Shown: positions 6,610-28,745 of the stretch, in pieces
How positions within the stretch are numbered: position 1 is the first letter of the stretch
How the letters are laid out: each line of letters opens with the position of its first letter
IMG/VR virus record: IMGVR_UViG_3300033808_000078
Coordinates: 1 to 42,076 of that record
DNA: 42,076 nucleotides
Source of the DNA: a virus
Lineage: Duplodnaviria > Caudoviricetes
Strand: one strand, 5' to 3'
The notes under the pieces: model-generated
What the model was told of the DNA's origin: nothing
The model's input: the letters and a program-made list of their open reading frames with translations, nothing else
Databases searched by the model: none
Translations under genes and position numbers: made by a program

Positions 6610-6791
6610 GAATTAATAGGATCGGATTAAACGTCGGATATGACAAGTTTCTTATCATCGAAGGTTGGGCCTACCGCGGGCGCAAGCTTCTCGAAAATGG
6701 GGAAGAGGAAAAAGCAAAGAGTTGCGCAAAGCGTATCAGCGAAGAGTTGAAAATTCTTAAAGTAATTCTGAAGCTCGAGGAGAACGAATGA
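6606..6791 (+). CDS. Hypothetical protein
   Basis: GGAGG RBS; overlaps both neighbours by 4 nt. Confidence 0.5.
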   Translation: MRINRIGLNVGYDKFLIIEGWAYRGRKLLENGEEEKAKSCAKRISEELKILKVILKLEENE

Positions 6792-7144
6792 AAAGGCCAG
6801 AATTCACGGCAAACATATGCAAGCTTATTTTGAGGATGATCGAAGAGGGCGAGAATCCCATTGGATGCGACTGGTGGCGATCCCTGCAATGACAGCAGGC
6901 TGACTTTGCCGTGGGCAGAGACGAGCACGGAAACATAACCGGACCGACAATTACGAACTGCGATGGCATTAAAAATGTATCGGGGCATCAATCGGGCAAA
7001 GCCCTGGACATTAACTTTCTCTCCGATGACAATTCGAAGCTTCTTGATGCGCCGAAAAAGGGCTGGACGTATTGGCACAATGTAGCCGTGGAAATGGATT
7101 TCGGGAGAGAAATAGGTTGGGACAAAGATCACTTTGAGGGTTGA
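6788..7144 (+). CDS. Endolysin, peptidase M15 family, with in-frame TGA at 6890-6892 (codon 35; putative Sec)
   Basis: MKRPEFT..DWWRSLQ*QQADFAVGR..TNCDG..SGHQSGKALD..WDKDHFE; Zn motifs SxH-x6-D and DxxH intact; ATGA-coupled start. Confidence 0.85.
6904..6920 (+). promoter_or_regulatory. Putative bacterial SECIS hairpin
   Basis: CTTTGCC-GTG-GGCAGAG 7-bp stem starting 11 nt after the TGA, loop begins GU. Confidence 0.55.
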
Positions 7145-7160
7145 AAGGAGGTGATACTGG

Positions 7161-7340
7161 ATGAATACGGATCTCGCAACGAGCGTGGCAGGGGCAGTCG
7201 CGGCGATATGTGGAATCCTCGCATATTTCAACGTCATCGTTCCGCAGCCGGTAAGTGCTGCAATAGGAGCCGTGGCGGTCGGCGTCCTCGGCTATTTCAC
7301 AAACAAAGCATCTAAGCCCAAGCCTCCGCCGCAGCCATAG
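7161..7340 (+). CDS. Holin-like 59-aa two-TM protein (not in ORF track)
   Basis: AAGGAGGTGA RBS; two hydrophobic helices and basic tail; directly after the endolysin. Confidence 0.7.
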   Translation: MNTDLATSVAGAVAAICGILAYFNVIVPQPVSAAIGAVAVGVLGYFTNKASKPKPPPQP

Positions 7341-7384
7341 CGGAGCGGAAAATATTCCAAAAAATATTTCAAAGGAGGTAGAGA

Positions 7385-7846
7385 ATGAAAAAAATTCTAT
7401 TCATTGTCCTGATCGTCCTTTTTTGGGCATTGCCGGCCCTAGCGCAAACTCCGACGCCCTCGCCGACACCGGCTCCATCCAGCGCCCCTACGGTTTCCGA
7501 TCTTCAAACTGTTTTCGGTTCATTCAACATCGGCACGGATCTTGTCTATCTGCCAAGGGCCAGGCAGTGGGAGGTGGGCGGCGGTGCGAACCTCGTCACC
7601 TGGAAGAATCTGCTCAATCTGCGTTTTCAGGTCGCCCAAGGCGCAACTGGGAGCCCCTTCTTCGGCGGCGGCATCAATGTGAATCTAGTGTCGCTTGCCA
7701 ACTTAACAGGGACGAACATCCAGCTCAGCGGTGTGATGAAAGCACTCAACCCAGCGATCGGAATAATGCCCGGGTATAACAGCACTCCCGGGGCAAAGAG
7801 ATTCGATTACGCAGTTGTGCTCAGCGTCATTGGCGTCACGTTCTAG
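7385..7846 (+). CDS. Secreted, probable small outer-membrane beta-barrel protein
   Basis: Signal peptide (..PALA), Pro/Thr linker, amphipathic strands, C-terminal VIGVTF. Confidence 0.55.
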   Translation: MKKILFIVLIVLFWALPALAQTPTPSPTPAPSSAPTVSDLQTVFGSFNIGTDLVYLPRARQWEVGGGANLVTWKNLLNLRFQVAQGATGSPFFGGGINVNLVSLANLTGTNIQLSGVMKALNPAIGIMPGYNSTPGAKRFDYAVVLSVIGVTF

Positions 7847-7871
7847 CCGGTGGCGGCCAAAGGGGAAAAAC

Positions 7872-8129
7872 ATGGATGCAACTCAAGTCATAGGCCTTAT
7901 TGCGCCCATTTTACAAACCGGACCCGTCGCAAGCATCGCCGGTGCACTAAATGAAGGGCTTAAATTGGTTAATCATCTCACCAGGGACGATCCAATAAAG
8001 CAGGCGAAAGCGCAAAGAGAATATTTGATGAGCCTAGACCTGATTGTGAAGGAGGTGCAGAATGCGGCGAAAGGCGAGGACGTATCTGCTTATCTGGATG
8101 CTTTCAGCAAACTGCTTGATTCTAAGTAG
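7872..8129 (+). CDS. Putative i-spanin (Rz-like)
   Basis: Hydrophobic N-terminus, helical body; overlaps a lipoprotein gene. Confidence 0.45.
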   Translation: MDATQVIGLIAPILQTGPVASIAGALNEGLKLVNHLTRDDPIKQAKAQREYLMSLDLIVKEVQNAAKGEDVSAYLDAFSKLLDSK

Positions 8130-8280
8130 TTGCGCGATGACCAGGCCGGAAATAATCTACAAAAACGTTCCGGAAGGGTACGTGGTGGTAAGCAAAGAGG
8201 CGCTGGCTGGGACGCTGCAATCGTGCGAGAGGTGCAAATCGGAGCTGCTAGATTGTTTGGGGAAATTGCCCCCCAAGTGA
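8062..8280 (+). CDS. Putative o-spanin lipoprotein (Rz1-like)
   Basis: AAGGAGG RBS, lipobox LSSC, overlaps the 3' end of the upstream gene. Confidence 0.6.
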   Translation: MRRKARTYLLIWMLSANCLILSSCAMTRPEIIYKNVPEGYVVVSKEALAGTLQSCERCKSELLDCLGKLPPK

Positions 8281-8296
8281 CGATCTAAGAGACGGT

Positions 8297-8608
8297 TCAC
8301 TTTTCCCCCCATCCAGTATCGGTGCCCTCCCATATTATAGACCCTCGGCGGAACGGTTCGGGCTTTTGGTTCATCTCTTTCTTGATAAGTTTATAGCCCC
8401 GCGATTCCATGCACTGAACGTAATCGTCTAGTTTGGCTTGCCTCGTATTCGGAATTTTCTCGTCGTAAACCGCCATCTCCATTCGGTGCCAACAGATCGC
8501 CTCATCCGTTTTCCTCCGATGGATATCGGTGTCCGGCCTATACCATTCAAGGGAGCTGCAGGCTGTCAAAAATCCGAACGCCAAAATTACGACGATTATT
8601 TTCTTCAT
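8297..8608 (-). CDS. Lipoprotein (possible superinfection exclusion)
   Basis: MKKIIVVILAFGFLTAC lipobox; C..CMESRGY. Confidence 0.7.
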   Translation of the reverse strand: MKKIIVVILAFGFLTACSSLEWYRPDTDIHRRKTDEAICWHRMEMAVYDEKIPNTRQAKLDDYVQCMESRGYKLIKKEMNQKPEPFRRGSIIWEGTDTGWGEK

Positions 8609-8844
8609 GATTGTATTCCCTCCCCGCAGAATGGACACTTGCCCCGATTCGAATCTGGAACCTTTACGGTCATTTTACAGTTTGGGCAGAAGGCCAGGCC
8701 GACCTTTTCTTCCGGCCTACCCTGAAGAATCGCAATCTGGTTAAGGACGCATAGGATATCTTTTAAGCGGGCGTACATTTTGAAGAAAACGACGAGCACA
8801 ATTAGCGAGAGAAGAAATCCTAACAGGCCCAAGAGTCCAGCCAT
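8605..8844 (-). CDS. Membrane-anchored zinc-ribbon protein
   Basis: N-terminal TM helix; CPNC..CPFC. Confidence 0.65.
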   Translation of the reverse strand: MAGLLGLLGFLLSLIVLVVFFKMYARLKDILCVLNQIAILQGRPEEKVGLAFCPNCKMTVKVPDSNRGKCPFCGEGIQS

Positions 8845-8856
8845 TTTGCCTGCTCC

Positions 8857-9201
8857 TTAATGGTTTGTTCTGTGCTTCCGGGCGAGACCAACCCGTTTTG
8901 CCACTTCCTCTCTCGGATTCGTTCCGTCGATCTTAGCTGCTATAATTGCGCACTCGCAAGGTTTCCTAGAAATACGACCACTTTTGGTCCAATGGAAGCA
9001 TCTACTGCAAACTACTTTTGTCGCTTCGGGCTTATTTCCCTGGGCGGCGATAAATCCGCACTCACAGGTATAATACCGGCGTAGATCATCGGTTCGGTCG
9101 GTAACATGGCGAATTTCATCCGCGCACATTCCGAGAAGTGATTTGTCTTTTGCTGGCTTAAATCCTATTGTGGATCTTGCTGATTTCGTCTTTTTCATCA
9201 T
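8857..9201 (-). CDS. Cys-rich hypothetical protein
   Basis: CECG..CSRC..CEC; starts just after a consensus promoter. Confidence 0.55.
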   Translation of the reverse strand: MMKKTKSARSTIGFKPAKDKSLLGMCADEIRHVTDRTDDLRRYYTCECGFIAAQGNKPEATKVVCSRCFHWTKSGRISRKPCECAIIAAKIDGTNPREEVAKRVGLARKHRTNH

Positions 9202-9212
9202 TTCTGAAGGAC

Positions 9213-9241
9213 ATCGTATCACGAGAAAAAGAACAAGTCAA
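9213..9241 (-). promoter_or_regulatory. Sigma70-type promoter for the 8297-9201 cassette
   Basis: TTGACT-N17-TACGAT with extended -10 TGn on the minus strand. Confidence 0.7.
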
Positions 9242-9402
9242 AAGAATGGACTCAATCGCGGATTTGAGAATTCGAGACAATCTCTATCCCCAATCCCGTG
9301 AGACACCTTGCGGACGGTGCCGCTTGAACTTTCCTTAATCATTCCATATAATAAAACAGTACCGTGCGTAGTGAAATAAACCCGCTAACCTTTGCCAGTA
9401 GA

Positions 9403-9810
9403 TTATTTGCTGGCATTCTCTACTTTTTTGATATCCTGCGCCGACTCTAACAACTGTGGATTCTCGTAAATGTTGCCAAGAACTTCAACTCCAAATTCCT
9501 CATCATCAGATATTATCAAACCAGTACCGCAAGCATCCCAATAATGCTTATTCCATTTAACTTCGCCAATTTTCCCATAGGCATTTGAATTTTTAACAAT
9601 ATCCCCCTCCCAAATCTCTTTGCCATTCTTGTCGTGGAGGCCGGTGAATTGCATAAGTGGCTTGTATTGTGTATTTAACATCAACTGCTTCAGTCTTGCA
9701 TGTTGATTGTCACAACAAGCCCATAGGCCATCCTGTTTCCACAAAAGCGACGTTACGATATACATTTTTTTCTCTCGATCATCCCACGCCCTAAACTTGA
9801 TCTCTCTCAT
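9403..9810 (-). CDS. YopX family protein
   Basis: MREIKFRAWD..LMQFTGLHDKNGKEIWEGDIV..EVLGNIYENPQLL. Confidence 0.92.
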   Translation of the reverse strand: MREIKFRAWDDREKKMYIVTSLLWKQDGLWACCDNQHARLKQLMLNTQYKPLMQFTGLHDKNGKEIWEGDIVKNSNAYGKIGEVKWNKHYWDACGTGLIISDDEEFGVEVLGNIYENPQLLESAQDIKKVENASK

Positions 9811-9827
9811 TCTCCCTCCACCTTCCT
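9807..9827. repeat. 21-bp direct repeat, copy 1 (TCATTCTCCCTCCACCTTCCT)
   Basis: Identical to 10521-10541; equals RBS+ATG on the minus strand. Confidence 0.85.
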
Positions 9828-10332
9828 ACTTTTCGATGAGTTTGTAGAGTTGAATATCAGGAAAGCTTTTTTTATCCTCATACTCCAGGGCAATCATTTG
9901 TTTGTGTAACTCAATCCCTTCCTCCAACTCCTTGATTCGGTCTTTCAATAGTTTAATACTACTAAGGGCTTGGTCAATGGCTTTTTCTCTCCCGTGCCAG
10001 GCTTCTATAGCTCCATCCCGTTCTTCTTCCAACTCCTTGATTCTGGACTCGGCCTTATTTGCTTCAGATAGCAAAAGACAACCCTTGCACCACTTTCTTT
10101 GATAGGGTGGATAATAAAGAATTTCCCGTTCCAACTCCTTGATTCGGGATTTGGCCTTGTCAAGATCATCTTGCAGATTCGAAAATTCTGCTAAGGTAGG
10201 AAATTTTAATGCATTCTGTTTTAATTCTTCAATCTCCTTCTCCTTCTCATTAAGGAGTTTCTGAATTAAATCTCTGTCATGCATATTGAAAAATGTAATT
10301 CTTTGTGTCTCCTCAATCTCTTCCTTCGTCAT
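9826..10332 (-). CDS. Coiled-coil hypothetical protein with three RIKELE repeats
   Basis: AGGAGG RBS; CCAACTCCTTGATTC occurs three times. Confidence 0.65.
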   Translation of the reverse strand: MTKEEIEETQRITFFNMHDRDLIQKLLNEKEKEIEELKQNALKFPTLAEFSNLQDDLDKAKSRIKELEREILYYPPYQRKWCKGCLLLSEANKAESRIKELEEERDGAIEAWHGREKAIDQALSSIKLLKDRIKELEEGIELHKQMIALEYEDKKSFPDIQLYKLIEK

Positions 10333-10344
10333 CTCAACCTCCTT

Positions 10345-10518
10345 GGCGGATGGCAGGATTCTCACCCACAGGGCCCAGGTTGTTTTCTTCTATCGTTATG
10401 GCAACCTTATCCGCTACTCGGATTACTCCTCACATTGTGCGGTTGGAGCTAGTACCACGAGACTTCAATTTGCGTCTCTCCCGCATTAAGCTCATTCACG
10501 CCCCTGAGCCACACCCGC
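10345..10518 (-). ncRNA. Degenerate tRNA-shaped element (Gly-like shell, expanded central region)
   Basis: GCGGGTG-TG-GCTCA..TGAGC ... GTGGG-TGAGAAT-CCTGC-CATCCGC: acceptor, D and T arms pair. Confidence 0.55.
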
Positions 10519-10520
10519 CA

Positions 10521-10541
10521 TCATTCTCCCTCCACCTTCCT
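10521..10541. repeat. 21-bp direct repeat, copy 2
   Basis: Identical to 9807-9827. Confidence 0.85.
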
Positions 10542-10562
10542 CAACTTCCTTCTGGACATGCT

Positions 10563-10829
10563 TCAATCGTTGCCATACTTGCTCGATGCTTTCGTCATTA
10601 TCTCTTCCAAACTTCCTGATAGCGTTTCTCTATAGGATTTGTGCACCCAGATCTCGCATTTATAGCTCATCTTATCCCACCATACGATGCCGAAGAAATT
10701 CCAAGCGGTATATTCCGCACAGATTCTTCCGCTTTTAAGACGCTCGGCAATCTCAAAATCTATCGAATCGTCAAAATTGCTCATAACCGTTTTTTCAATC
10801 CGCTTGTAATCCGACGGTATTCTTTTCAT
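10563..10829 (-). CDS. Conserved phage hypothetical protein
   Basis: VMSNFD..YTAWNFFGIVWW; RBS and coupling to the integrase stop. Confidence 0.65.
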   Translation of the reverse strand: MKRIPSDYKRIEKTVMSNFDDSIDFEIAERLKSGRICAEYTAWNFFGIVWWDKMSYKCEIWVHKSYRETLSGSLEEIMTKASSKYGND

Positions 10830-10830
10830 T

Positions 10831-11952
10831 TTATCCTTCCTTCCCCTTCCTCATTTGCAATATCTCCGCCGCCCTCTGCGTTGTCACCCTCGCGTAACTC
10901 TCTTCGACCACCTGCTCAGAATTCCCGAGAATCCTGGCGATGTCGGCCGTTGCGGTTCCACGGTTCTTTAACCGACAGGCCAGGGAAGTCCGGGTCCCGT
11001 TCTTTAACGGGATAACCCTTACTCCTGCCTTCTTCGATGCCCTCACCCAAATCCCATAAACGGCGGAACGGGTATATTTCAAGCCGTGGGAGGTTGAGAA
11101 GACGTAATGAAGATTGATGGGTGGGCAGGAACCGCCCCTGCTTGTCCCCGTAGTAATCCGGTCTGGGGGAAGGGACCCGGATATCTTCAACTTCCCTGCG
11201 TTTTCACATTGAACGCCACCACCCACCAAATCCTTCTCAATCTCTGGCATTATCGGAAGCACGTTGTCTTCCATGTTCTTTCGCCCTCTAAACGTGATCT
11301 CTCTTTTTTGCCAGTCGATGTCCGTTCTCTGAAGATTGCATGCCTCGCTTACTCGACAGCCATAGGTCGTCAAAAACCTCAAGATCGGTCTATGATGAGG
11401 CAATGCAGCCTCGACCACCTTGGTCTGCTCCTCCTCAACTAGCCATTCAAGTTTTTTCTTGGGGACGGTGATCTTGGGGAATCTCATCATCTTTTTACGG
11501 CTAATTTGGAAGGCATTGAGGAACGCCCGCAGAGTCACCCTGATCAGCCTGAGATATGCGGGAGAGTATGTCTTTGGTAGCTTGCTAAACCAATCCAGAA
11601 CATGATGCTCCTCGATATCGGCCAGCGTCATGTCTTTAAAATAAGGCTTTATAAAATCCTCAAAGATCCTATCCCGATCCCCCATCCTCACTCTGCCTAC
11701 GGGGTTCTGCTCCTGGTAGATTTTCCAGGCGTTGGGTACAAGGATCGTCTTGTCCTTGCCCCAGTTGATCGGATCGAAAGTCTTACCATCAACCTCGCTT
11801 TGGATCTGGGCAAGGACCCGCTTCGCCAGCTCCTCATTATAGAGCGGGATTCTATTGGCCCCATAATGGTTGAACCAAAGCCTTTTCCCCTTCCATGGGA
11901 AGTAGACCCTATACCTCTGCCTCCGCCGGTCAAAGTAGTATCCGCCCTTCAT
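10831..11952 (-). CDS. int: Tyrosine recombinase / integrase
   Basis: YGCRVSEACNL, GRK, NGTRTS, LGNS, ESYA; arm-binding-type N-terminus. Confidence 0.9.
   Translation of the reverse strand: MKGGYYFDRRRQRYRVYFPWKGKRLWFNHYGANRIPLYNEELAKRVLAQIQSEVDGKTFDPINWGKDKTILVPNAWKIYQEQNPVGRVRMGDRDRIFEDFIKPYFKDMTLADIEEHHVLDWFSKLPKTYSPAYLRLIRVTLRAFLNAFQISRKKMMRFPKITVPKKKLEWLVEEEQTKVVEAALPHHRPILRFLTTYGCRVSEACNLQRTDIDWQKREITFRGRKNMEDNVLPIMPEIEKDLVGGGVQCENAGKLKISGSLPPDRITTGTSRGGSCPPINLHYVFSTSHGLKYTRSAVYGIWVRASKKAGVRVIPLKNGTRTSLACRLKNRGTATADIARILGNSEQVVEESYARVTTQRAAEILQMRKGKEG
11116..11227 (-). ncRNA. Degenerate tRNA-shaped element (Leu-like shell) embedded in-frame in int
   Basis: GGTGGGTGG/CCACCCATC acceptor, GCGTT..AACGC D-arm, GCAGG-N7-CCTGC T-arm. 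Confidence 0.55.
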
Positions 11953-12014
11953 GTTTACCCCCTCAAGGATCAATGAGGGGATGGTATTGAATTGTGGCCG
12001 TAAAGTCAAGGGAG

Positions 12015-12767
12015 TCATGGCTCGATGTTTTTAAGGATCGTCAACGCTTGTTGAAGATGATAGATTAATTGCTGTAACGCTGCATCATTTTTCGAATCTG
12101 GTAAGTTTCGAACCAACCATGAATAGTCCGAATCGAGTCTCTTTATCAATCCGAGAGCAGTCCACTTCGCCTGCCTGCCCGTAGCGAGTATCTTTGCCCC
12201 TCGGTGATAGAACGAATTCTCTGGGTCCGCCGAAAAATTTGCCTTACATGGATCCGAACAACACCAACTTCTTCTTTCGAGGCCGTTGAACTCTTTTCCG
12301 CACCACCAGCATTTCCTCATTCGGATATTTGATATTTCCTCAGAAGCTGGTTCAGTTCTTTTAGGAACAACTTGATCTGCTGTTTCGTTTTTGGCCGGTT
12401 GTGGTACATCGCTCGGCATTTTGGATTGCAAAATTTCTGAATGACCGTTCCGCTGGTCGTTTTCCTCGGGTTTAGAATCGGAGATTGGCAGTTCAGGCAA
12501 GTCTGCATTTAGGCTCTCACCCCACTTTGATTCGATATAGAATTTATAAGTCCAAAGGATGGTGCTTCTTTGCCTCCAGCGACTGTGATTTCCAGCGCCT
12601 ATATGGCAGTTCTGGCAAAGAATGATATAATTTTCGAATTCATCTTTGCCTCCTTTTGCTACAGGAACGATGTGATGGACCTGGAGGTTCAGGCCAGACC
12701 GGCATTCTGGATTAAAGCAGCCAAAGCACTCGTATTTCTGTTTGTATGCGGCTATGGTTTGAGTCAT
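12015..12767 (-). CDS. HNH endonuclease fused in-frame to a downstream Zn-finger ORF (internal ATG 12320)
   Basis: CFNPEC..LQVHHIVPVAKGGKDEFENYIILCQNCH. Confidence 0.8.
   Translation of the reverse strand: MTQTIAAYKQKYECFGCFNPECRSGLNLQVHHIVPVAKGGKDEFENYIILCQNCHIGAGNHSRWRQRSTILWTYKFYIESKWGESLNADLPELPISDSKPEENDQRNGHSEILQSKMPSDVPQPAKNETADQVVPKRTEPASEEISNIRMRKCWWCGKEFNGLERRSWCCSDPCKANFSADPENSFYHRGAKILATGRQAKWTALGLIKRLDSDYSWLVRNLPDSKNDAALQQLIYHLQQALTILKNIEP
12317..12508 (-). CDS. 63-aa zinc-ribbon protein nested in another frame inside the HNH ORF
   Basis: CLNC..KFCNPKCR; GGGGTGA RBS; stop overlaps ATG 12320 (ATGA). Confidence 0.6.
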   Translation of the reverse strand: MQTCLNCQSPILNPRKTTSGTVIQKFCNPKCRAMYHNRPKTKQQIKLFLKELNQLLRKYQISE

Positions 12768-12823
12768 AAAATGACGGCCTCTGCGTGCGTATATACGCTA
12801 CTAAGGAAGATTTCTGGCTCCCA

Positions 12824-12994
12824 TCACCACCCCTTTTCCCGATATAACCGTTCTAAAATCTCCTCCATCGACTCGGTCAAGTCGCCTTTGATGTCCATCC
12901 GCCTCTCGCACGCTTCAACGAAGCGCTCCTCCCAATCAGTCAGGTCGTTAAAATCGAGGCCCGAGATGATCCATTTGAGGCGGTCGGAGGTCAT
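12824..12994 (-). CDS. 56-aa hypothetical protein (not in ORF track)
   Basis: LTDWEERFVE motif; ATGA coupling. Confidence 0.6.
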   Translation of the reverse strand: MTSDRLKWIISGLDFNDLTDWEERFVEACERRMDIKGDLTESMEEILERLYREKGW

Positions 12995-13713
12995 TTTCTC
13001 CCCGTGGCGGCCATGGAAGATGAGGAAACCGCCTTCACCCCCGGCACGTTCATCTCCTTCTTAAGTGATCGTGCCATTCCATTTAGAGCGGTCATATTCG
13101 GTTCGACATAAAGGACCGGGCATTTCCCATCGCCTATCGCCTTACAAAGAGCCTTAAGGTCTGTTACCTCGGCCTTCCAGTATTCCTTAAGGGCCATGCC
13201 CACAGGCTTCACAATCGGGATCGTTACGGGTCCCACGTGAACCTCGAAGGGCTTTTCGTTCTCCTCGATGGCCTCGGCAACGAGGGCGTCGGCCTCTTCC
13301 TTTGCTCCGGATGCCTCGAGCGCCGCAGCTTGGGCTAACCTTTCGATCTCTTCTTTTTGCCGTCGCTCGGCCTCTTGCTTGATGGCTTTCTGGCGAAGCA
13401 TTTCCTCCTCCTGTTCCCGGAGCGTATTTTGTTTGATCGTATAGGCCGTCACCTGGCCGTTTAGATACCTCTCGGCCTCAATCAGTGGGGCCTCAGCGTC
13501 AGCTTTCTGTTTCAAGGCTTCCTTATGCGTGGCATGGGCCTTGGCAATCAGAGGATCAAAGACATCGGCGATTTTCTTCCGTAGCGCTTTAATCGTTAAG
13601 AAAAAATCGTTGGCCTTTTCCAATGAGGGCTGATCCCGGACAGTGATGAGTTTTGCCTCTCCTGGAATCGGCATCACCTCCTGTTTTACCTGTTCAAATG
13701 ATCCTTCATTCAT
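12991..13713 (-). CDS. Coiled-coil phage protein of the recombination module
   Basis: Long E/A/K-rich helix, WKAEVTD..VPGV C-terminus. Confidence 0.65.
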   Translation of the reverse strand: MNEGSFEQVKQEVMPIPGEAKLITVRDQPSLEKANDFFLTIKALRKKIADVFDPLIAKAHATHKEALKQKADAEAPLIEAERYLNGQVTAYTIKQNTLREQEEEMLRQKAIKQEAERRQKEEIERLAQAAALEASGAKEEADALVAEAIEENEKPFEVHVGPVTIPIVKPVGMALKEYWKAEVTDLKALCKAIGDGKCPVLYVEPNMTALNGMARSLKKEMNVPGVKAVSSSSMAATGRK

Positions 13714-14314
13714 AACCCCTCCTTCCATATTCTGTGAAAATTGGGACGGACCACCTCGCTACCGTGAGACAGGCCAGAAAGACCGGTAGCAACAGTTTCG
13801 GCTTTTCAACTGGCCTGAGCTTGTAGGTGCCGTTGTCTTTCAAGTAAAGGCAAAAGATTTTCTGAATATTTTTAAGTTCATTCGCCTGACATAACTCCCA
13901 ATATGCGACAACCTGAAGACGATCGACCGGATCTGGCGCTCCCGATTTCAAATCCAGCAAAGCACCGCTTCCGTTTAACATGCCAATCCGGTCCACCTTT
14001 CCGGCGTACCAGTAAGATCCGTGAAGAAATTTTTGTTCGATTATGGCTGGGTCGAATCCGGTGTCTTGCCTGAATTTCTTATAGGCATCGAGATACGGTC
14101 GGATTCGTTCATCAACGGTGGACTCGTCGAGCTCGTCCCGATCATGGTATTCCGTCGCAAGATGGACAAGCCTGCCTCTCTCTAAATAGAACGGATCCAC
14201 CTTCCATCGCTTGTCGAGGAAAGAAAGGGCCTCGGTAACGCCTATGATGCGGCGCTGATCGATCCAGTAGGTATGATCTTCTTCCCTGAGCACTAGGTTA
14301 TTGTGCGTCTGCAT
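13706..14314 (-). CDS. PD-(D/E)XK exonuclease-like protein
   Basis: GVTEAL..RGRLVH..E..YAGKVDR..LLDLKSG..QVVAY. Confidence 0.8.
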   Translation of the reverse strand: MQTHNNLVLREEDHTYWIDQRRIIGVTEALSFLDKRWKVDPFYLERGRLVHLATEYHDRDELDESTVDERIRPYLDAYKKFRQDTGFDPAIIEQKFLHGSYWYAGKVDRIGMLNGSGALLDLKSGAPDPVDRLQVVAYWELCQANELKNIQKIFCLYLKDNGTYKLRPVEKPKLLLPVFLACLTVARWSVPIFTEYGRRGYE

Positions 14315-20176: not shown

Positions 20177-20183
20177 AATGAGC

Positions 20184-20760: not shown

Positions 20761-22606
20761 GCCGTTGCTCGTGGTATTGAGACCTCCGCAGAGACTTACC
20801 GTGTCTGAATGGGCGGACAGGCATCGCATTCTCACCGCTGAGACATCTCCGGAGCCCGGCCCTTACCGCACGGCGCGGACACCCTATTGCAAAGGGCCCA
20901 TGGATGCCTTCTCAAACCCCGATATAGAGCAGATCGTCTGCTGTTTTGCCACACAGACGGGGAAAACTGAGATGGAATACAACTGCCTGGGGTTTGTGAT
21001 CGACCAGGATCCCTCGCCGGCACTTCTGGTAATGCCGACCGAGATACTTGGAAAGTACGTGTCAAGGAATCGAATCCAGCCAATGATCGAGGCATCAGAG
21101 AGATTAAGAAACAAGAAGACGCAGGATCCGGATGATTTCACGACCCTTGAGATGAAATTCCAGCAGATGGTTCTGTCAATTGCCGGTGCGAATTCAGCGG
21201 CCTCTCTCTCGGTCCGGCCCGTGCGTTATCTCTTCAGGGATGAGATAAATAAATTTCCGGCGATCATCGGTAAGGAGGCGGACCCCATGAGCCTCTCCAA
21301 AGAAAGAACAAAGAACTTCTGGAACCGGAAAATATTTGATGTCTCGACTCCGACGAACGAAGACGGAAGCATTACCAGGGAGCTTGAGACCTGCGACGCT
21401 GTTTTTGACTATCATGTTCCCTGTCCTCATTGCGGATTTGAGCAGATCCTGAGATTTTCCCAGATCAAATGGCCACAGGAAGAGAGAGATCCCGAGAAAG
21501 TGAGGACCATAGCCTGGTATGAGTGCGAGAGCTGCAACGCAGTAATCTCCGACCATCACAAGACGCAAATGTTGAAAGAGGGAAGCTGGAAATCGAGAGA
21601 AGCTGGAATCAGCCATCCGCGAAAGGTCGGATTTCATCTTCCAGCCTGGTACTCACCTTGGGTTACGTGGGGGGACTGTGCTTCGGAGTTCCTCAAATCG
21701 AAGGACTACCCGGAGAAGTTGAGAAATTTTCGAAATTCCTGGGAGGCCGAGCCGTGGCTTGAGACTATGGATGCGATCGAAAGCGAGGGATTGATTGCGA
21801 GAAAGGAGGACTATGGCCCGAAAATTCCCAGTCAGGCTGGCGTTCTTACTGCTGCAGTCGACGTTCAAGACGACCGTTTGGAGGTTGAGATCATCGCTTG
21901 GGGGCCCGGGGAAGAGTCTTGGAGCATGGATTTCAAGATTTTTATGGGATCGCCGGCCCTAGAACAGCCCTGGAGCGAGCTGGACACCCTCCTCCAGGCC
22001 TCTTTCGAACATGAATTGGGCGCCATACTGCATATTGCGGCAGTTTGCGTCGACACGGGCGGCCATTTTACCAAAAACGTCTATGAATTCGTCCGGCCAA
22101 GGCAGACAAGGAGGGTCTTTGCAATCAAAGGCTCGAATCAGGCCAACATGCCGATTGTCACGAGACCAAAAGTCTCAGCGGTCTCGAACGTGAGGCTTTT
22201 CAGCGTAGGAACGGACACGGCGAAGCAAATCATCTATGCAAGGCTCAAATTGCAGGCCCCTGGCCCCGGTTTTCTCCACTTTCCTAAATTTCCGATGTAT
22301 GACGAGGAGTATTTCAGACAGTTGGCGGCGGAAAAATGCGTCATTCGGATGGACAAGCGGGGTTTTCCTTACCGGGAATGGATCAAAGAATACAAAAGAA
22401 ACGAAGCACTCGACCTGAAAGTCTACAATCTTGCGGCATTGACGCTTCTCAATGTGAACTGGGAGCGGGTCATGGCAAGCCTTCAGAAGCAAGAGGAGGC
22501 CGAGGATGAGCTGAAAGAGCCTGCCCCGGACCCGAGGCCACTGGATTTGGTCAATCCTATCACCAACAGACCCAGGGGGGGATGGATGAAAGGATATAAG
22601 AGATGA
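20717..22606 (+). CDS. terL: Terminase large subunit, gpA family
   Basis: LTVSEWAD, TQTGKTE, DEINK, STPT, PCPHC, VDVQDDR, DTGG, RNEALD. Confidence 0.95.
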   Translation: MPTGTPSLKSLGYIEPLLVVLRPPQRLTVSEWADRHRILTAETSPEPGPYRTARTPYCKGPMDAFSNPDIEQIVCCFATQTGKTEMEYNCLGFVIDQDPSPALLVMPTEILGKYVSRNRIQPMIEASERLRNKKTQDPDDFTTLEMKFQQMVLSIAGANSAASLSVRPVRYLFRDEINKFPAIIGKEADPMSLSKERTKNFWNRKIFDVSTPTNEDGSITRELETCDAVFDYHVPCPHCGFEQILRFSQIKWPQEERDPEKVRTIAWYECESCNAVISDHHKTQMLKEGSWKSREAGISHPRKVGFHLPAWYSPWVTWGDCASEFLKSKDYPEKLRNFRNSWEAEPWLETMDAIESEGLIARKEDYGPKIPSQAGVLTAAVDVQDDRLEVEIIAWGPGEESWSMDFKIFMGSPALEQPWSELDTLLQASFEHELGAILHIAAVCVDTGGHFTKNVYEFVRPRQTRRVFAIKGSNQANMPIVTRPKVSAVSNVRLFSVGTDTAKQIIYARLKLQAPGPGFLHFPKFPMYDEEYFRQLAAEKCVIRMDKRGFPYREWIKEYKRNEALDLKVYNLAALTLLNVNWERVMASLQKQEEAEDELKEPAPDPRPLDLVNPITNRPRGGWMKGYKR

Positions 22607-22806
22607 AAATAAGGATCCGGAGTGATGGAAATCCGCACCATACAGAAATCGCTGACGAACAGGGCAACCTTCTAGAAGGCGTGACGAAGGTAAAGTGGAG
22701 ACAGGACGGCCCCGCAAAGCTTCCAATCGTTACTTTGGATCTCTATGGAGTTGAGGTTGATATCGAAGGGCAGATGGAGGAAACAAACCCAGGGGGAGAT
22801 AGATGA
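22603..22806 (+). CDS. Hypothetical protein
   Basis: ATGA coupling to terL. Confidence 0.55.
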   Translation: MKIRIRSDGNPHHTEIADEQGNLLEGVTKVKWRQDGPAKLPIVTLDLYGVEVDIEGQMEETNPGGDR

Positions 22807-22819
22807 AGGGGTACAAGAG

Positions 22820-23089
22820 ATGAATCACGCCGCCATTCAAAAGGCGAACTCTCTCCTTGATCGGCTTAACCAGATTCGAATCAGTGAGGCAAAGAAGATG
22901 ATCACAAAAAAATGCCCGTTCTGTAACGAGAAGGTAGATTGGCAGAAAGTGGATAATGGAGATTGGATTTTTTACGACCACGCGACGAGGAATCCTCACG
23001 TCCATGATGCACTCCTAGCCGACGGGGATCGGTGTCCGTCGTGCAAAGAGAGAGTGCAGGACTTTTCAAGGCATTTATGCAAGAGGTAG
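22820..23089 (+). CDS. Zn-binding hypothetical protein
   Basis: CPFC..W..PH..CPSC. Confidence 0.55.
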   Translation: MNHAAIQKANSLLDRLNQIRISEAKKMITKKCPFCNEKVDWQKVDNGDWIFYDHATRNPHVHDALLADGDRCPSCKERVQDFSRHLCKR

Positions 23090-23091
23090 AA

Positions 23092-23265
23092 ATGAAAGAG
23101 TCATGGTTTTCCATCTTTATTGACGACAAGCTATTCTGGACCGGAGATTTAGTCTTCTCTAAAACGATGAGGGAAGGATTGGAATATTTAATTAAAGCCA
23201 TTCCAAAGCAAAAGAAATCTGGAAAGATTGAGATAACGGTCACAGCAGAAGATGAGAGGAGGTAA
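23092..23265 (+). CDS. Hypothetical protein
   Basis: GAGG RBS, ATG 23092. Confidence 0.45.
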   Translation: MKESWFSIFIDDKLFWTGDLVFSKTMREGLEYLIKAIPKQKKSGKIEITVTAEDERR

Positions 23266-23270
23266 ATCAC

Positions 23271-23305
23271 GGCGGGGCGTGGCATGGCACGGCAAGGCGA
23301 GGCGT
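23271..23305 (+). repeat. Tandem GGCNN pentamer array (x7)
   Basis: GGCGG GGCGT GGCAT GGCAC GGCAA GGCGA GGCGT. Confidence 0.8.
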
Positions 23306-23314
23306 GGGTTTTAA

Positions 23315-23632
23315 ATGGGTGAAGCGAAACGACGAGAGGAGAGATTTATGAACTTGATCACCCCAGAGAAGAATCAAGAGTCACGGGATTTGAAAGAAAA
23401 AGAACTGGTCGAGACCGGCGCGCACGTCTGCATCAACTGCGAGTACTGGCTCAGGTCCAATCCGGAGGCCGATGACGGAGAGTGCCACCGTTTTCCGCCG
23501 ACGGTGTTTGCCTTTCCTGGAAAATCGCAATTCGGGAGTTTACAATTCGCTTCGAACTCGTTCTTTCCCAGATGCCGGGCGGAGATTTCCTGCGGAGAGT
23601 TCAAGGCCACATCACACATCACAACGTCATAG
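23315..23632 (+). CDS. Cys-rich phage protein (CxxC..GECHRFPP..FP..CGEF)
   Basis: MGEAKRR start; conserved four-Cys pattern. Confidence 0.7.
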   Translation: MGEAKRREERFMNLITPEKNQESRDLKEKELVETGAHVCINCEYWLRSNPEADDGECHRFPPTVFAFPGKSQFGSLQFASNSFFPRCRAEISCGEFKATSHITTS

Positions 23633-23640
23633 GAGGACCG

Positions 23641-23865
23641 ATGAAAAAAACGAATGGAGGGCGCATCGGCTGGCTCTCGGGCTGGAAAGAAATCGCCACC
23701 TATCTCGGATGCTCGGTGAAGACCGCGCAGGATTATCACAAAAGGCTGAAGTTGCCCGTCAATAGGCTTCCGGGCCCCAAGGGAAAGTACGAAAAGCGCG
23801 TCGCAATTCCTTCCAAACTCGATGAATGGCTCGAAAAACAGGGCAGGGCCGCTCCCCGGGGCTAA
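23641..23865 (+). CDS. HTH DNA-binding protein (late regulator candidate)
   Basis: LSGWKEIATYLGCSVKTAQ..LPV..LDEW; AGGAGG RBS. Confidence 0.75.
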   Translation: MKKTNGGRIGWLSGWKEIATYLGCSVKTAQDYHKRLKLPVNRLPGPKGKYEKRVAIPSKLDEWLEKQGRAAPRG

Positions 23866-23929
23866 AATTACCACATCCTTACTACAACTCTTCCATAACT
23901 TTGACCTATCTTTTCCCTATGCTGCTCAT

Positions 23930-23958
23930 TTGACATCTTCCTTTTTTCCCTGTATCAC
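23930..23958 (+). promoter_or_regulatory. Putative late promoter
   Basis: TTGACA-N17-TATCAC. Confidence 0.5.
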
Positions 23959-24004
23959 TCAGCCTTAAAGCAAATCCTCGTCTCGAGCGAGGTACAAGGA
24001 GGGG

Positions 24005-24046
24005 AAAGCCTACCATGCGCATGGCGTTGGTGGGCTTTTCTTTTTT
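24005..24046 (+). terminator. Rho-independent terminator in the late leader
   Basis: AAAGCCTACCA...TGGTGGGCTTT followed by TCTTTTTT. Confidence 0.7.
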
Positions 24047-24060
24047 GGAGGGCACACGAA

Positions 24061-24669
24061 ATAATTCCACCGATCCCCACCATCGAACCGACACAGGCTT
24101 ACGCCGGCGACACGATCAAGTGGACCAAGTCGCTCGCCGATTATCCCGCCTCTGATGGCTGGACCCTCAACTATTCCATTCGTGGCACCGTCAAATACGA
24201 CATCGCAGCCGTGACCGATCCGGATGGGCAAACGTATGACATTACAATCCCGGCTACAGACAGTGCGAAATGGGTTGCAGGCGATAACATCTGGCAATCT
24301 TATGTGACCAAGGTTTCGACGGGCGAGGTCTACACGATGGACCATGGCCCGTTGAAGATCTTGCCGTCGTTGCCCAAGCAAGTCGCGGCCTTTCCGTTTC
24401 AATCCACTTATAAGCAGGCGCTCACCAACGCTGAAGCGCAGCTCCTGAATCTCACCAACGTCGACTGGGACTCGATGAGCGCTGAGGGAAGGTCCATCGC
24501 CAAGAGGAGGATCGACGAACACCGCGAGCTGATCCTCTGGCTCAAGGCAGAGGTCGTCCGCGAAGAGTGCGAGGACAACCGTAGCCGTGGACGTGGAAAC
24601 CGGAGAAGGATTCTCCCGAGATTTTCTCCGCAGAGCGTCAACTATGATTGGGACATCAACGCGACATGA
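24061..24669 (+). CDS. Head-completion / head-tail adaptor protein (gpW position), probable ATA/ATT start
   Basis: IPTIEP..AGDTIKW..DYPASDGWTL lies upstream of the first GTG (24211); GGAGG at 24047-24051. Confidence 0.7.
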   Translation: MIPPIPTIEPTQAYAGDTIKWTKSLADYPASDGWTLNYSIRGTVKYDIAAVTDPDGQTYDITIPATDSAKWVAGDNIWQSYVTKVSTGEVYTMDHGPLKILPSLPKQVAAFPFQSTYKQALTNAEAQLLNLTNVDWDSMSAEGRSIAKRRIDEHRELILWLKAEVVREECEDNRSRGRGNRRRILPRFSPQSVNYDWDINAT

Positions 24670-26201
24670 AGCTAATCGATAGGGTGCTCAGGAAATTCGG
24701 ATACCAGAAAAGCAAGCCGCTTACTCGTCGGACTTTCGAAGCCGCGGCTGTCAACCGGCTGACGATGGACTGGGGCACGACTCCTTTCTCCGCCGACTGG
24801 GACATCCGCTACACGCTCCGGCAGCTGCGCGCCAGATCCCGGGATCTCTCAAACAACAATGAGTATGCCCGGAAGTTCATCAAGATGTGCGTCTCGAATG
24901 TCGTGGGCCCCGATGGGATCATGTTCCGGTCGACGATGAAGGACAAAAACGGCAGGCCTGACAAGGGAAACAACCAGGCAGTCATGGATGCCTGGGCCGA
25001 GTGGGGCAAGAGAGAGAACTGCACGGTAACCGGGCTCCTTTCCTGGCCGGCCCTTCAACGCCAGGTGATCGAGACTGTCGCCAGGGACGGCGAGATCTTC
25101 CTCCGGATCGTAAGAAACTTCCCGAACGATTTTGGCTTCGCGCTCCAGGCGCTCGAGGCCGAGTACATGGACGTGAACCTCAACCGCCCTGGGGAGAACA
25201 TCCGTATGGCGATCGAGTATGACGACTGGAGAAGACCCATCGCCTACTGGGTGATGGCATCCAACATCTATGACTACCAACCGCCGATGCACGCCCTGAA
25301 GTACATCCGCTACCCCGCGAGCGACATCATCCACATCTATTGGCAAGAGAGGCCCGAGCAAGGGAGAGGGATCCCCTGGATGAGTTCCGCCATGATGAAC
25401 ATGCAGATGCTCAGGGGATACAAAGAATCCGAGCTCGTCAGCGCCCGCGTGAGCGCGGCCAAGATGGGATTCCTCGAGCCAGGAGACAAAGGCGCAGAGG
25501 ACGCCTACACAGGTGACGATCAGGATTCCCAGGGGAACACGATTACGGAGGTCGAACCCGGGATGATCGAACAGCTCCCCAGGGGCTATAAATTTTCGAC
25601 TTTCGATCCGCAGCATCCCACAACGCAATTTGATTCTTTTGTGAAATCATGCCTCCGAGGGATTTCTTCGGGATTCCTGGTTTCCTATAACTCTCTGGCC
25701 AACGACCTCGAACACGTCAACTACTCCTCGATCCGGCAGGGCGTGATCGATGAGCGCGACATGTGGAGGATCCTCCAGGCGCTCCTCATTGAAAGTTTAT
25801 GCCAGCCGGTCTTCAAGGCGTGGCTTCCGATCGCGATGGCCAAAGGCAAGATCCGGATCCCGATGACGAAGCTCGACGATTCCCAAGTGAAGTGGCGCCC
25901 CAGGGGATGGGACTGGGTCGATCCCCTGAAAGACCAGCAGGCCATGGTGATGGCGATCAACACGGGCCTCCAATCGAGGAAGGACACACTCGCCGAGCAG
26001 GGCGAGGACTTCTACGAGCTGATAGACGAGATCGCCGATGAGCATGCCTACATCAAGCAGAAGGGCCTCGACTTTAACGTCACGCCGACGGGCGTGCCCT
26101 CCAAGTTCGGCGCGAGCCCACAGCCCCAGGCGCCGGTGCAAGAGGGCCAGCAAACGGTGAGCCCTTCGGCAAGGCGCGCAGCAAAGGAAGCGGAGGCGTA
26201 A
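24666..26201 (+). CDS. Portal protein, lambda family
   Basis: LRARSRDL..VVG..RDGEIF..RPEQGRGIPW..NYSSIR..WVDPLKD. Confidence 0.95.
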   Translation: MKLIDRVLRKFGYQKSKPLTRRTFEAAAVNRLTMDWGTTPFSADWDIRYTLRQLRARSRDLSNNNEYARKFIKMCVSNVVGPDGIMFRSTMKDKNGRPDKGNNQAVMDAWAEWGKRENCTVTGLLSWPALQRQVIETVARDGEIFLRIVRNFPNDFGFALQALEAEYMDVNLNRPGENIRMAIEYDDWRRPIAYWVMASNIYDYQPPMHALKYIRYPASDIIHIYWQERPEQGRGIPWMSSAMMNMQMLRGYKESELVSARVSAAKMGFLEPGDKGAEDAYTGDDQDSQGNTITEVEPGMIEQLPRGYKFSTFDPQHPTTQFDSFVKSCLRGISSGFLVSYNSLANDLEHVNYSSIRQGVIDERDMWRILQALLIESLCQPVFKAWLPIAMAKGKIRIPMTKLDDSQVKWRPRGWDWVDPLKDQQAMVMAINTGLQSRKDTLAEQGEDFYELIDEIADEHAYIKQKGLDFNVTPTGVPSKFGASPQPQAPVQEGQQTVSPSARRAAKEAEA

Positions 26202-28745
26202 ATGCCTTACCCGAACGAGCATGCCTGAAGGCTCCTTGAGCCGATCAAGGGCGCCGAGACCCGGCGGGTCAACGGTGACAGGGACCATGACGGCAAGAAG
26301 TACGACGTAATTTACCAGAAGCAGAAAGACGGTAAATGGGAGGATCAGGCTTATCGCTACCCGAAGGAGACCTGGACGGCCAGCCAGGCCGAGAGCCATT
26401 GCAAGAGCCACAAGGGAAGGTTCGAGGCCGCGAGCGGTGGCGAGAAAAAGTCAAGTGATGACTTGGAGGTCAGATCGATGAAACTTAATTCAAAAGGCGT
26501 CGGCCATGCGCGATCGCTGATCGCCTCTGGCAAAGTCGACCGAAATTCGAGCTGGGGATTTTCCGGGGAGGACGGCGACAAAATCCTCGGAAAGGACAAC
26601 TGGGATGAATACTCAAAATGGTTCCTGGCAACCGACCCCGATGAAAACGAGAAGACCAAGGCGCACTATAAATACCCTTATGGCAAAGACGGCAAAGTTT
26701 ACCGCTCGGGTGTGATCGCTGCCAAGCAGAGGGCAGCCCAACAGAGAGAGTCCTCTATCGCGGATGCCGCCGACTCACTGCTTCAGTCGATCGATAAAGA
26801 CAAGAAGGGAGAGAAAAGCGTTCTCAAAACCAAAATGTTCTTCCGGCAGTTCGAAATCAAACAGGGCGACATCGATAAGGAAAAACGGACAGTCAATCTG
26901 TCCTTTTCAAGCGAAACACCAGTGGATCGCTTCTATGGGAAGGAGATTCTTGACCATTCGCCCACGTCCGTCAGGATGGGTCGGCTAAGGAGTGGGGGAC
27001 CGCTCCTGGTCAATCATAATCCGGACGATCAGGTGGGCGTTATAGAGAAGGCTAATGTCGGAGCGGACCGCGTGGGGCGGGCCGAAGTTCGCTTCGGGAG
27101 AAGCGCGCGTGCTGAAGAAGTCTTCAACGACGTCCAGGATGGGATCAGGAGATTCACTTCCACGGGCTATCGCGTTTATCGGATGGCGGAAGAAGGCGAT
27201 CATGCGGCCAATGACGAGCCCTGCTACCGGGCCACGGACTGGGAACCCCATGAAATTTCGATTGCAAGCATTCCCGCGGATCCCAGCGTCGGCATCGGAC
27301 GGAGCTCGCCCGAAGAAAACGAACTCGTGATGGTCCGGTGGGTTCAAAAAGATCCGGATCAAACGCCGAACGAACAAAGGCAGAAGGAGGCAAAAAAAAT
27401 GAATTGCACGATTTGTAGCGCAGCACTCGTCGACGGGAAATGTCCCGCCTGCGAAACAAGGAAGATGGAACAGCAACGGACGCGAGAGATTTTTGCCATC
27501 GCAGACAAATTCAAAGATACGGTCCCAAGTGCCCTCGATCTGGCAAGGACTGCCATCGAGAAAGGAGAAACCGAGGAGCAGTTTCGAAAGATCATCCTCG
27601 ACGCAATGGGCACGCCCAAGCCAACCCCGGACAAGGACAAAGCACTTCCCGCCCCAAAGGAGAAGATGTTTCGGTCCTTTGGAGAGAATCTTCAATACAT
27701 CGCCATTATGAGCGATACAACGCCAGGCCATGTACTGGCGAGAAAGATGTTCAGCCAGGATCAGGTCAAGCATTGGATGGATGTCAACCGTGCCATCTCT
27801 GGCATGAGCGTCAGCGTGCCGAGTGATGGCGGCTTCATGGTCGACACCGAATTCACAACCGCCCTCCTGAAGAACATGTGGGATACCGGCCTATTGATGA
27901 GCCGGTGCACAAGGATCCCGGTAGGTCCCGATGCAGACGGAATCGAAGGGCCGTACATCGATGAGACAAGCCGTGCCACTGGATACCGTTGGGGCGGCGT
28001 GCAGGTGTATCGCCAGCCGGAAGCCGGCGCAGCAACAGCCAAACAGCCGAAACTCGGAAAATTCGAAATTCGGCTCGAAGACCTAAAGGGATTGGTCTAC
28101 ATCACCAACCGCCTACTGAGAGACGCCGTTGCGCTCGAAGCCTGGGTCTCCAGGGCGTTTCTCGAGGAATTCGGTTTTGTGATCGATGATGAAATCATCC
28201 GTGGTGATGGCGCAGGTCAGTGTCTCGGAATCCTTAACTGCCCCGCCTTGATTACTGTAACGAAAGAAAGTGGCCAGGCGGCCTCAACCGTTCAGTTCGA
28301 AAACCTGACGAAGATGTTCTCTCGCCTTCTCGGAAAGCTTAGACCGAACGCGGTGTGGTTCTACAACCAGGAAATCGAGCCGCAGTTGTTCGGCCTTGGC
28401 ATCACCCTCGGCACGGGCGGGGCACCAGTCTTTATGCCTGCTGGCGGGCTGAGCGCAAGTCCCTACAATACCCTTTTTGGACGCCCGATGATTCCAATCG
28501 AGCAGGCTTCTCAGCTCGGAACCGTGGGCGATCTCATGTTCCTGGACCTCAGCCAATACCTCATTGTCGATAAAGGCGGGATCGAGGCGGCCCAGTCGAT
28601 GCATGTGAGGTTCATATACGACGAAATGACGTTCAAATGGACATATCGCATCAACGGCCAGCCCGCGCCTCCGTGGAAGGCTCCGCTTACACCGTACAAA
28701 GGTGCGAATACCCTGGGGCCATTCGTGGTACTCGGCGCAAGATAA
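26202..28745 (+). CDS. Prohead protease-major capsid fusion; N-terminal PYPNEHA domain with in-frame TGA at 26226-26228; internal starts at 26478 and 27399
   Basis: Single frame 26202-28745; SFSSETPV..LLVNH..STGY..EISIASIPAD protease; SDGGFMV..HK97-type capsid. Confidence 0.9.

What the first reader, a model, noticed from the sequence alone, without database searches (positions are those of the whole stretch)
6788..28745. System view: UGA-gated late functions (lysis and head) in an Fe-S/Cys-rich phage
Seen: two independent late genes each carry exactly one internal TGA with downstream hairpins, and I saw no other internal TGA or frameshift decay in recognisable genes. No tRNA-Sec or suppressor tRNA is visible. 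Inference: host Sec insertion, which is slow and Se-dependent, could throttle lysis timing and set the ratio of a capsid isoform. This parallels stop-codon recoding of late genes in other phages but is codon-context specific.
Basis: inference. Interest (0 to 1): 0.75.

Follow-up and report, generated by a model that had tools for sequence, protein, structure and literature searches.

The report
Phage head protein uses selenocysteine
A 42-kb phage has a TGA stop codon inside its head gene at a site where relatives have cysteine and 13 other distinct viral sequences also have TGA, so it likely builds a selenium-containing head-assembly protein with the host's machinery; a second TGA in its lysis enzyme may be read the same way, but extra start sites would let the head be made without it.

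Summary
Both TGAs are real: endolysin codon 35 (6890) and protease-capsid codon 9 (26226).

The head TGA passes the usual selenoprotein tests. It sits at a Cys position of a ~78-aa accessory domain (about 640 Cys copies). It recurs in 18 viral contigs (13 distinct), while TAG, TGG and TAA were never found there. A G-loop hairpin follows in 11 of 14 TGA copies against 8 of 108 Cys copies. A partner Cys comes and goes with this site, which points to a Se-S staple.

The gating view is weak for the head. Strong internal starts at 26478 and 27399 bypass the UGA, and 9 of 12 Sec copies have such a bypass against 7 of 53 Cys copies. The one complete Sec-head relative has an intact lysin.

The endolysin TGA has a well-placed hairpin, and a 68%-identical relative ends at the same codon. 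However, it aligns to Glu or Ala, never Cys, so Sec there is about 60% likely.

My searches found no phage selenoprotein in print. The host is unknown and nothing is tested experimentally.

The parts
26202..28745 (+). Head gene read through UGA (847 aa): Sec/Cys accessory domain, second accessory domain, S78 prohead protease, scaffold and HK97-type capsid
26202..26441 (+). ~78-aa accessory domain (PYPNEHA-U-R motif); no family in Pfam, PHROGs or NCBIfam; predicted 4-5 strands plus one helix, pLDDT 96
26226..26228 (+). In-frame TGA, codon 9, at the Cys site; predicted selenocysteine
26230..26286 (+). Candidate SECIS stem-loop; apical loop at 26257-26261 or 26263-26265 (28 or 34 nt after UGA), weaker than in relatives
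   Evidence: model from PMC13188914
26400..26402 (+). Cys67, predicted partner of Sec9
26465..26480 (+). Strong SD and in-frame ATG (Met93): predicted start that bypasses the UGA
   Evidence: duplex -10.0 kcal/mol against -9.5 for the first start; phrog_34096 match begins here
27385..27401 (+). Strong SD and in-frame ATG (Met400): predicted scaffold/capsid start
   Evidence: -11.0 kcal/mol
6788..7144 (+). M15 (Ply500-like) L-Ala-D-Glu endolysin read through UGA; Arg31 lies before the TGA, the predicted Zn ligands His67/Asp74/His115 after it
6890..6892 (+). In-frame TGA, codon 35; aligns to Glu (23 of 33 homologs) or Ala, never Cys
6899..6926 (+). Candidate SECIS: 7-bp upper stem 6904-6920, GUG loop 6911-6913, 18 nt after UGA
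5578..6198 (+). NlpC/P60 protein upstream in the same cluster; possible second wall hydrolase, no internal TGA
7161..7340 (+). Small hydrophobic holin-like gene (inferred from sequence and position), no internal TGA

Best explanation
The TGA at codon 9 of the head gene lies at a cysteine site of a small phage head-accessory domain and is likely decoded as selenocysteine by the host's SelB/tRNA-Sec through an in-gene hairpin, likely giving a selenium-sulfur bond with Cys67, while strong downstream starts would let protease and capsid be made without it. Shown: the TGA/Cys alternation, recurrence in other phages, hairpin enrichment, co-occurrence of the partner Cys, and the presence of internal SD+ATG sites. 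Inferred: actual Sec insertion (about 0.9), the Se-S bond as a structural staple (about 0.65), use of the internal starts as a buffer against incomplete UGA decoding (about 0.6), and removal of the domain during head maturation. The endolysin UGA is likely a second SECIS-dependent codon (about 0.6). It has no bypass start, so active enzyme would depend on read-through, but it is a separate, lineage-limited event and not a conserved partner of the head site.
For: TGA at this codon in 18 viral contigs, 13 distinct over the next 60 nt, with the frame open through the domain in all 18. Cys is at the site in about 640 stretches; TAG/TGG 0; TAA/TAG 0 of 10 hits of a T-W-N codon scan. No stop in the first 60 residues of 108 of 108 Cys copies. 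G-loop hairpin, broad rule: 11 of 14 TGA against 8 of 108 Cys; loop at nt 20-26: 9 of 14 against 4 of 108. After 80% clustering, broad rule: 11 of 13 Sec, 6 of 95 Cys, 9 of 69 Ala. Double-sided changes in 4 of 7 stem pairs among 12 Sec copies; paired cells 79.8% against at most 51% for slid controls. The Sec label needs at least 4 changes on starred branches of a quick tree, 10 on the best tree. Partner Cys present in 13 of 13 Sec, 92 of 95 Cys (2 unparsed, 1 without) and 2 of 69 Ala copies. Both Cys are absent in cultured S-CBS1 and CRP-831 capsid proteins. Internal SD start in 9 of 12 Sec against 7 of 53 Cys copies at -7 kcal/mol, and 9 of 12 against 14 of 53 at -4. Downstream frames hold 83 TGG codons in 5506 codons, and TGA ends many genes here and in relatives, so this is not code 4. 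Endolysin: P0035 (68% identical) ends exactly at residue 34, and P0060/P0005 begin at the same Val42; P0035 and P0060 each list a 991-bp longest contig.
Against: No experiment, no RNA run, and no host with selA/selB/selC identified: the GTDB scan gave 3 chance matches with closed frames. The window's head hairpin lacks the nt 22-24 GU loop of most relatives and is no better than shuffles. The phylogeny-corrected test of hairpin against Sec has only 4 independent pairs, p 0.25-0.5. Three of 14 Sec copies fail my hairpin rule, which is my own simplification of the published model. The Cys9-Cys67 distance was not measured in the model, and the Ala copies may be few lineages. Three of 12 Sec copies have no internal start. 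For the endolysin: 0 Cys among 33 homologs at the site, Ala in the closest full-length relatives with DNA, L142/L190, the stop codon of P0035 was not seen as DNA, and a 'shorter' search found only the window's own fragment.
Confidence: 0.72

Rival explanations
1. One reading: host Sec insertion gates both lysis and head production as one selenium-sensing late-gene switch.
For: Two late genes with TGA plus hairpin in one complete genome. The endolysin has no bypass start (SD -3.4 before GTG 6911), and its site tolerates Glu, Thr, Gln, Ala, Ser, Gly or Ile, so decoding itself may be the point. UGA recoding in E. coli is 30-40% efficient and needs selenium (PMC4513850, abstract).
Against: Protease and capsid have strong starts downstream of the UGA. 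0 of 10 Sec-head records carry the endolysin family. Complete relative G005 has an intact M15_3 lysin. No credible second Sec gene in 7 relative records (the scan missed one known site, in G005). The holin-like gene has no TGA, and holins usually set lysis time (general knowledge, recalled).
Confidence: 0.12
2. The head site is Sec but the endolysin TGA is an ordinary nonsense codon in a dispensable lysin, backed up by the NlpC/P60 protein.
For: No Cys homolog at the site. A hairpin this good arises in 15% of synonymous shuffles. An NlpC/P60 gene lies 600 nt upstream. An earlier AI note judged a TGA in another M15 endolysin to be nonsense (e1-6036358, unchecked).
Against: A relative 68-73% identical appears broken at the same codon with both halves conserved. 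All catalytic residues are intact. The codon changes that separate the window from the Ala relative L142 are those that form the stem, and the GTG loop codon is the called start in P0005/P0060. No inverted repeat of 6 nt or more lies at this TGA.
Confidence: 0.35
3. Both UGAs are leaky stops read by near-cognate tRNA (Trp/Cys), or true stops that silence an optional domain made dispensable by internal starts.
For: Internal starts are enriched in TGA copies. TGY to TGA is one substitution. Ala-form domains show that the Cys is dispensable in some lineages.
Against: Only TGA, never TAA, TAG or TGG, at this codon. No stops elsewhere in 108 Cys copies. The domain stays conserved behind the TGA, including at the C-terminus of a portal protein (L001). 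The hairpin spacing matches the bacterial SECIS model.
Confidence: 0.08
4. Sec9 is a metal ligand or redox-catalytic residue, not a structural staple.
For: His7 and His66 flank the two Cys in most copies. Most known selenoproteins are redox enzymes (PMC13188914 passages).
Against: The domain persists in about 1400 stretches with Ala at the site and almost always without the partner Cys. His66 is replaced by Trp in some Cys copies.
Confidence: 0.2

Closest known systems
Bacterial selenoproteins with an in-frame SECIS (bSECIS model as given in PMC13188914; E. coli fdhF prototype)
   Same: Single UGA at a Cys position, hairpin just downstream with G at the start of the loop 16-37 nt after UGA, Cys-containing and TGA-containing homologs.
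   Different: Encoded by a phage that carries no tRNA-Sec; sits in a head-assembly domain with no known family; Cys is lost with its partner in many homologs; followed by bypass starts.
Stop-codon-recoded phages (codes 4/15/25; bioRxiv 10.1101/2021.08.26.457843)
   Same: [quoted passage not shown]
   Different: Those have many recoded codons, often suppressor tRNAs, and TGA to Trp or TAG to Gln; 'selenocysteine' occurs 0 times in the main text. Here there are two sites, TGA stays a common stop, and the signal is a local hairpin.
Poxvirus selenoproteins (molluscum contagiosum and fowlpox glutathione peroxidases; PMC8310308 passages)
   Same: Virus-encoded UGA decoded by the host Sec machinery.
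   Different: Captured host antioxidant enzymes with eukaryotic SECIS, not virus-specific assembly or lysis proteins.
Ply500/LysB4 L-alanyl-D-glutamate peptidases (M15)
   Same: Fold match to 2vo9 (E 9.5e-6, TM 0.77); profile match E 8.6e-9; Arg, Gln, His, Asp, His conserved.
   Different: TGA replaces the Glu before the conserved Gln; this clade has an extra Cys27.
Major head proteins of Synechococcus phage S-CBS1 and Roseobacter phage CRP-831
   Same: Carry the same accessory domain ahead of the protease-capsid.
   Different: Ala at the Sec site and no partner Cys.

Membership tests
Bacterial-type selenoprotein (head domain) | In-frame UGA aligned to Cys in homologs | tested here: met
   about 640 TGY stretches; Cys in the homologs found without a DNA pattern
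Bacterial-type selenoprotein (head domain) | UGA conserved in independent homologs with an open downstream frame | tested here: met
   18 contigs, 13 distinct, scattered on the tree
Bacterial-type selenoprotein (head domain) | bSECIS hairpin downstream of UGA | tested here: met
   family level 11 of 14 against 8 of 108, with covariation; the window's own hairpin fits the spacing but is weak
Bacterial-type selenoprotein (head domain) | Host has selA/selB/selC/selD | tested here: inconclusive
   no host found; no tRNA-Sec in the window or over cut-off in 5 relatives
Bacterial-type selenoprotein (head domain) | Selenium present in the protein | not testable with these tools
   needs labelling or mass spectrometry
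Bacterial-type selenoprotein (endolysin) | UGA aligned to Cys in homologs | tested here: not met
   0 Cys of 33 homologs; Ala in L142/L190
Bacterial-type selenoprotein (endolysin) | UGA conserved in an independent homolog | tested here: inconclusive
   P0035 ends at the same residue but its codon was not seen
Bacterial-type selenoprotein (endolysin) | bSECIS hairpin | tested here: met
   GUG loop 18 nt after UGA, 7-bp stem, -11.8 kcal/mol; chance about 15% under synonymous shuffling
Alternatively coded phage (code 4/25) | TGA reassigned across many genes | tested here: not met
   17 of 39 genes end in TGA; two internal sites only
Alternatively coded phage (code 4/25) | Suppressor tRNA or code-change module | tested here: not met
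   no tRNA; present in only 35-40% of such phages, so a weak feature
M15 L-Ala-D-Glu endolysin | LAS fold with Arg/Gln and His-Asp-His | tested here: met
Any solved fold (head domain) | Structural match in the PDB | tested here: inconclusive
   no Foldseek hit at E<=0.001, best VIA Z 4.7

The most novel reading that the evidence does not exclude
This phage encodes two selenoproteins of its own late program. One is a head-assembly domain stapled by a Se-S bond, with a long/short ratio set by Sec decoding. The other is an endolysin whose UGA-SECIS sits at a position where the residue does not matter, so the SECIS serves purely as a selenium- and SelB-dependent throttle on lysis: Sec recoding used as a sensor, not for chemistry.
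Probability: 0.25. Interest if true: 0.92.

Novelty: new variant of a known kind. Interest (0 to 1): 0.78.

Why it matters
Selenoproteins are catalogued in bacteria and archaea, mostly as redox enzymes, and in a few animal viruses. Here a phage-specific assembly domain switches repeatedly among Ala, Cys and Sec, each Sec form with an in-gene hairpin. If right, phages tap host SelB, Sec can serve as a structural bond, gene callers truncate these head genes, and the TGA form marks hosts that make Sec. The Ala/Cys/Sec series in one 78-aa domain makes the question 'why selenium instead of sulfur' directly testable. Literature basis: six searches for phage selenoproteins listed none. A 2026 review has 0 occurrences of phage, virus, viral, capsid or protease (PMC13188914, term search of main text). 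BSepDB has 0 occurrences of phage in the main text and 0 in the one supplementary file held, which is probably cut, so its family table may not have been seen. Subscription papers are not covered.

Tried and rejected
Sequencing error: rejected. Genome-wide code 4/25: rejected. J-like tail gene split as recoding: rejected, it is a TAA with its own SD and ATG. Palindrome-made nonsense at the endolysin TGA: no inverted repeat of 6 nt or more there. Host search: the GTDB pattern scan gave 3 chance matches, which I dropped before all counts (they were wrongly included in the first tally); an integrase search in plasmids gave only 24% matches; no endolysin match in cultured phages. DNA of an endolysin relative with the same stop: not found in viral contigs or metagenome contigs (none of the 48 loci showed a TGA at the site). 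No RNA holder listed. No solved relative or clear fold for the head domain; ESM Atlas gave only unnamed viral clusters below 0.9. My first genome-wide TGA scan missed 3 of 8 known sites, including the endolysin, and was redone. The regex for the partner Cys misparsed rows and was redone. A single-sequence search found no head domain in 3 endolysin-relative records, but the profile found a distant, stop-free copy in G013. The careful tree did not finish; the quick tree was used.
Full report
The window is a whole virus record, rated 100% complete, held by one peat metagenome run that is probably its source. It is a temperate-looking tailed phage with integrase, RecT, lambda-type terminase and portal. 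It has no tRNA and no Rfam match.

Observation. Reading TGA through joins two genes. One is 6788-7144, with TGA at codon 35. The other is 26202-28745, with TGA at codon 9. Source-run contigs show no variant at either site. A scan for SD+start, TGA, open frame and G-loop hairpin returned these two and one antisense candidate. TGA is the commonest true stop in the 39 genes I picked (17 of 39), so any recoding must be site-specific. On their own the two hairpins are unremarkable (z -0.5 to -1.7; 11-16% of synonymous shuffles).

Head gene: the codon. Residues 1-80 form a domain with no Pfam, PHROGs or NCBIfam family. It folds confidently (pLDDT 96) but has no clear solved relative. Pattern scans of viral contigs on the motif gave Cys in about 640 stretches, Ala in about 1400, TGA in 18, TAG or TGG in 0, and Leu, Phe or Tyr in 10 with no TAA or TAG. 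The patterns differ slightly, so the counts are only roughly comparable. In all 18 TGA loci the frame stays open through the domain. The domain is joined to portal, ClpP-like, S49, S78 or capsid proteins.

Head gene: the hairpin. Among distinct copies, a stem with G at the start of the loop follows 11 of 14 TGA copies (window included) and 8 of 108 Cys copies. With the loop at nt 20-26 the counts are 9 of 14 and 4 of 108 (three chance genome hits dropped). Twelve Sec copies that align without gaps show double-sided changes in 4 of 7 pairs; the window and L015, whose loops lie further out, were left out of that alignment. L011 (TGA) and L099 (Cys) encode the same peptide across the stem, but only L011's codons pair. 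The Sec label is scattered on a quick tree, needing at least 4 changes on starred branches. The phylogeny-corrected test is underpowered (4 pairs, p 0.25-0.5). The hairpins fit the bSECIS model as stated in PMC13188914 (passages). The window's own loop lies 28 or 34 nt after the UGA: inside the model, but atypical for the family.

Head gene: what Sec does. A Cys in or just after the C-terminal helix is present in 13 of 13 Sec, 92 of 95 Cys and 2 of 69 Ala copies. Cultured S-CBS1 and CRP-831 lack both Cys. I infer a paired bond, Se-S in the Sec form, that is structural and optional. That Se-S bonds form at lower redox potential than disulfides is recalled knowledge; it would suit a reducing cytoplasm or an anoxic habitat, but this is untested.

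Head gene: bypass. A strong SD and ATG follow the domain (26478), and another precedes the scaffold/capsid (27399). Such a start occurs in 9 of 12 Sec and 7 of 53 Cys copies (not corrected for phylogeny). E. coli recodes only 30-40% of UGAs, given enough selenium (PMC4513850, abstract). So the likely logic is a buffer: the head is made regardless, and Sec decoding adds the optional domain to a fraction of molecules. This supports an isoform ratio and argues against gating.

Endolysin. The read-through product folds as a Ply500-like M15 peptidase. Arg31 is upstream of the TGA and the three predicted Zn ligands are downstream, and the GTG after the TGA has no SD, so activity would need read-through. 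For Sec: a GUG-loop stem 18 nt downstream; P0035, 68% identical, stops exactly at residue 34; and P0060/P0005, 72-73% identical, start at the same Val, with P0035 and P0060 both listing a 991-bp contig. Against: the site is Glu in 23 of 33 homologs and never Cys; it is Ala in the nearest full-length relatives with DNA; P0035's codon is unseen; and an NlpC/P60 gene nearby could stand in. The deep-Sep paper states that all known selenoproteins appear to have Cys homologs (PMC12013277, passages), which this gene fails. I put Sec at about 0.6.

System claim. None of 10 Sec-head records holds the endolysin family (control; most are fragments). The complete relative G005 has a TGA in its head domain and an uninterrupted M15_3 lysin. 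Seven relative records showed no credible second site (which missed the known G005 site). The pairing therefore looks particular to this phage. The simplest reading is that a phage living in a Sec-making host can acquire UGA-SECIS sites independently.

Literature. Six searches for phage selenoproteins listed none (listings only). Term searches of main texts found no phage selenoprotein in PMC13188914, PMC13326102, PMC2398784, PMC12013277 or PMC9402790. PMC8310308 passages name only poxvirus enzymes. The recoded-phage preprint never mentions selenocysteine. One BSepDB supplement was searched and is probably truncated. An earlier unchecked AI note reports a candidate Sec in a different (ChaB-like) domain at the front of another phage head gene; that is a lead, not support.

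Verdict. The head selenocysteine is likely and appears new. The endolysin is open. The gating system is unlikely in its stated form. Interest 0.78.

Noticed in passing
window 1458-3440 and 4340-5563: The two halves of a J-like tail-tip gene carry Cys-rich repeats at their junction, next to a radical SAM/SPASM gene whose best NCBIfam match is the PapB ranthipeptide maturase family (below cut-off). Possibly a tail protein modified by thioether cross-links.
   Followed up: partly
window 2103-2126: In-frame TAA overlapped by a strong SD, then ATG 2124: the J-like gene is split into two coupled genes.
   Followed up: yes
P0149: A 708-aa protease-capsid protein whose called start lies two residues after the Sec site and carries the peptide typical of the hairpin; probably a further TGA-truncated copy.
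   Followed up: no
L001-L004, L006, L008, L011, L012, L014, L018: 10 of 14 Sec copies carry a second Cys pair in the beta-hairpin, against 18 of 108 Cys copies.
   Followed up: no
L009 and Cys copies L041, L070, L090, L109: Where the helix Cys is lost, a Cys appears about 6 residues later.
   Followed up: partly
window 26478-26830: Second accessory domain (phrog_34096 N-terminus) ahead of the protease; no Pfam family.
   Followed up: no
run X1, contig laid at window 7046-7097: A second, low-depth phage in the same run has a related endolysin whose flanks match P0006.
   Followed up: no
window 7815-8280: Overlapping pair of small genes after the holin-like gene, the second lipoprotein-like: possible spanins (inferred).
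   Followed up: no
P0096, P0100: The accessory domain is also joined to gamma-glutamylcyclotransferase-like (PF06094) domains.
   Followed up: no
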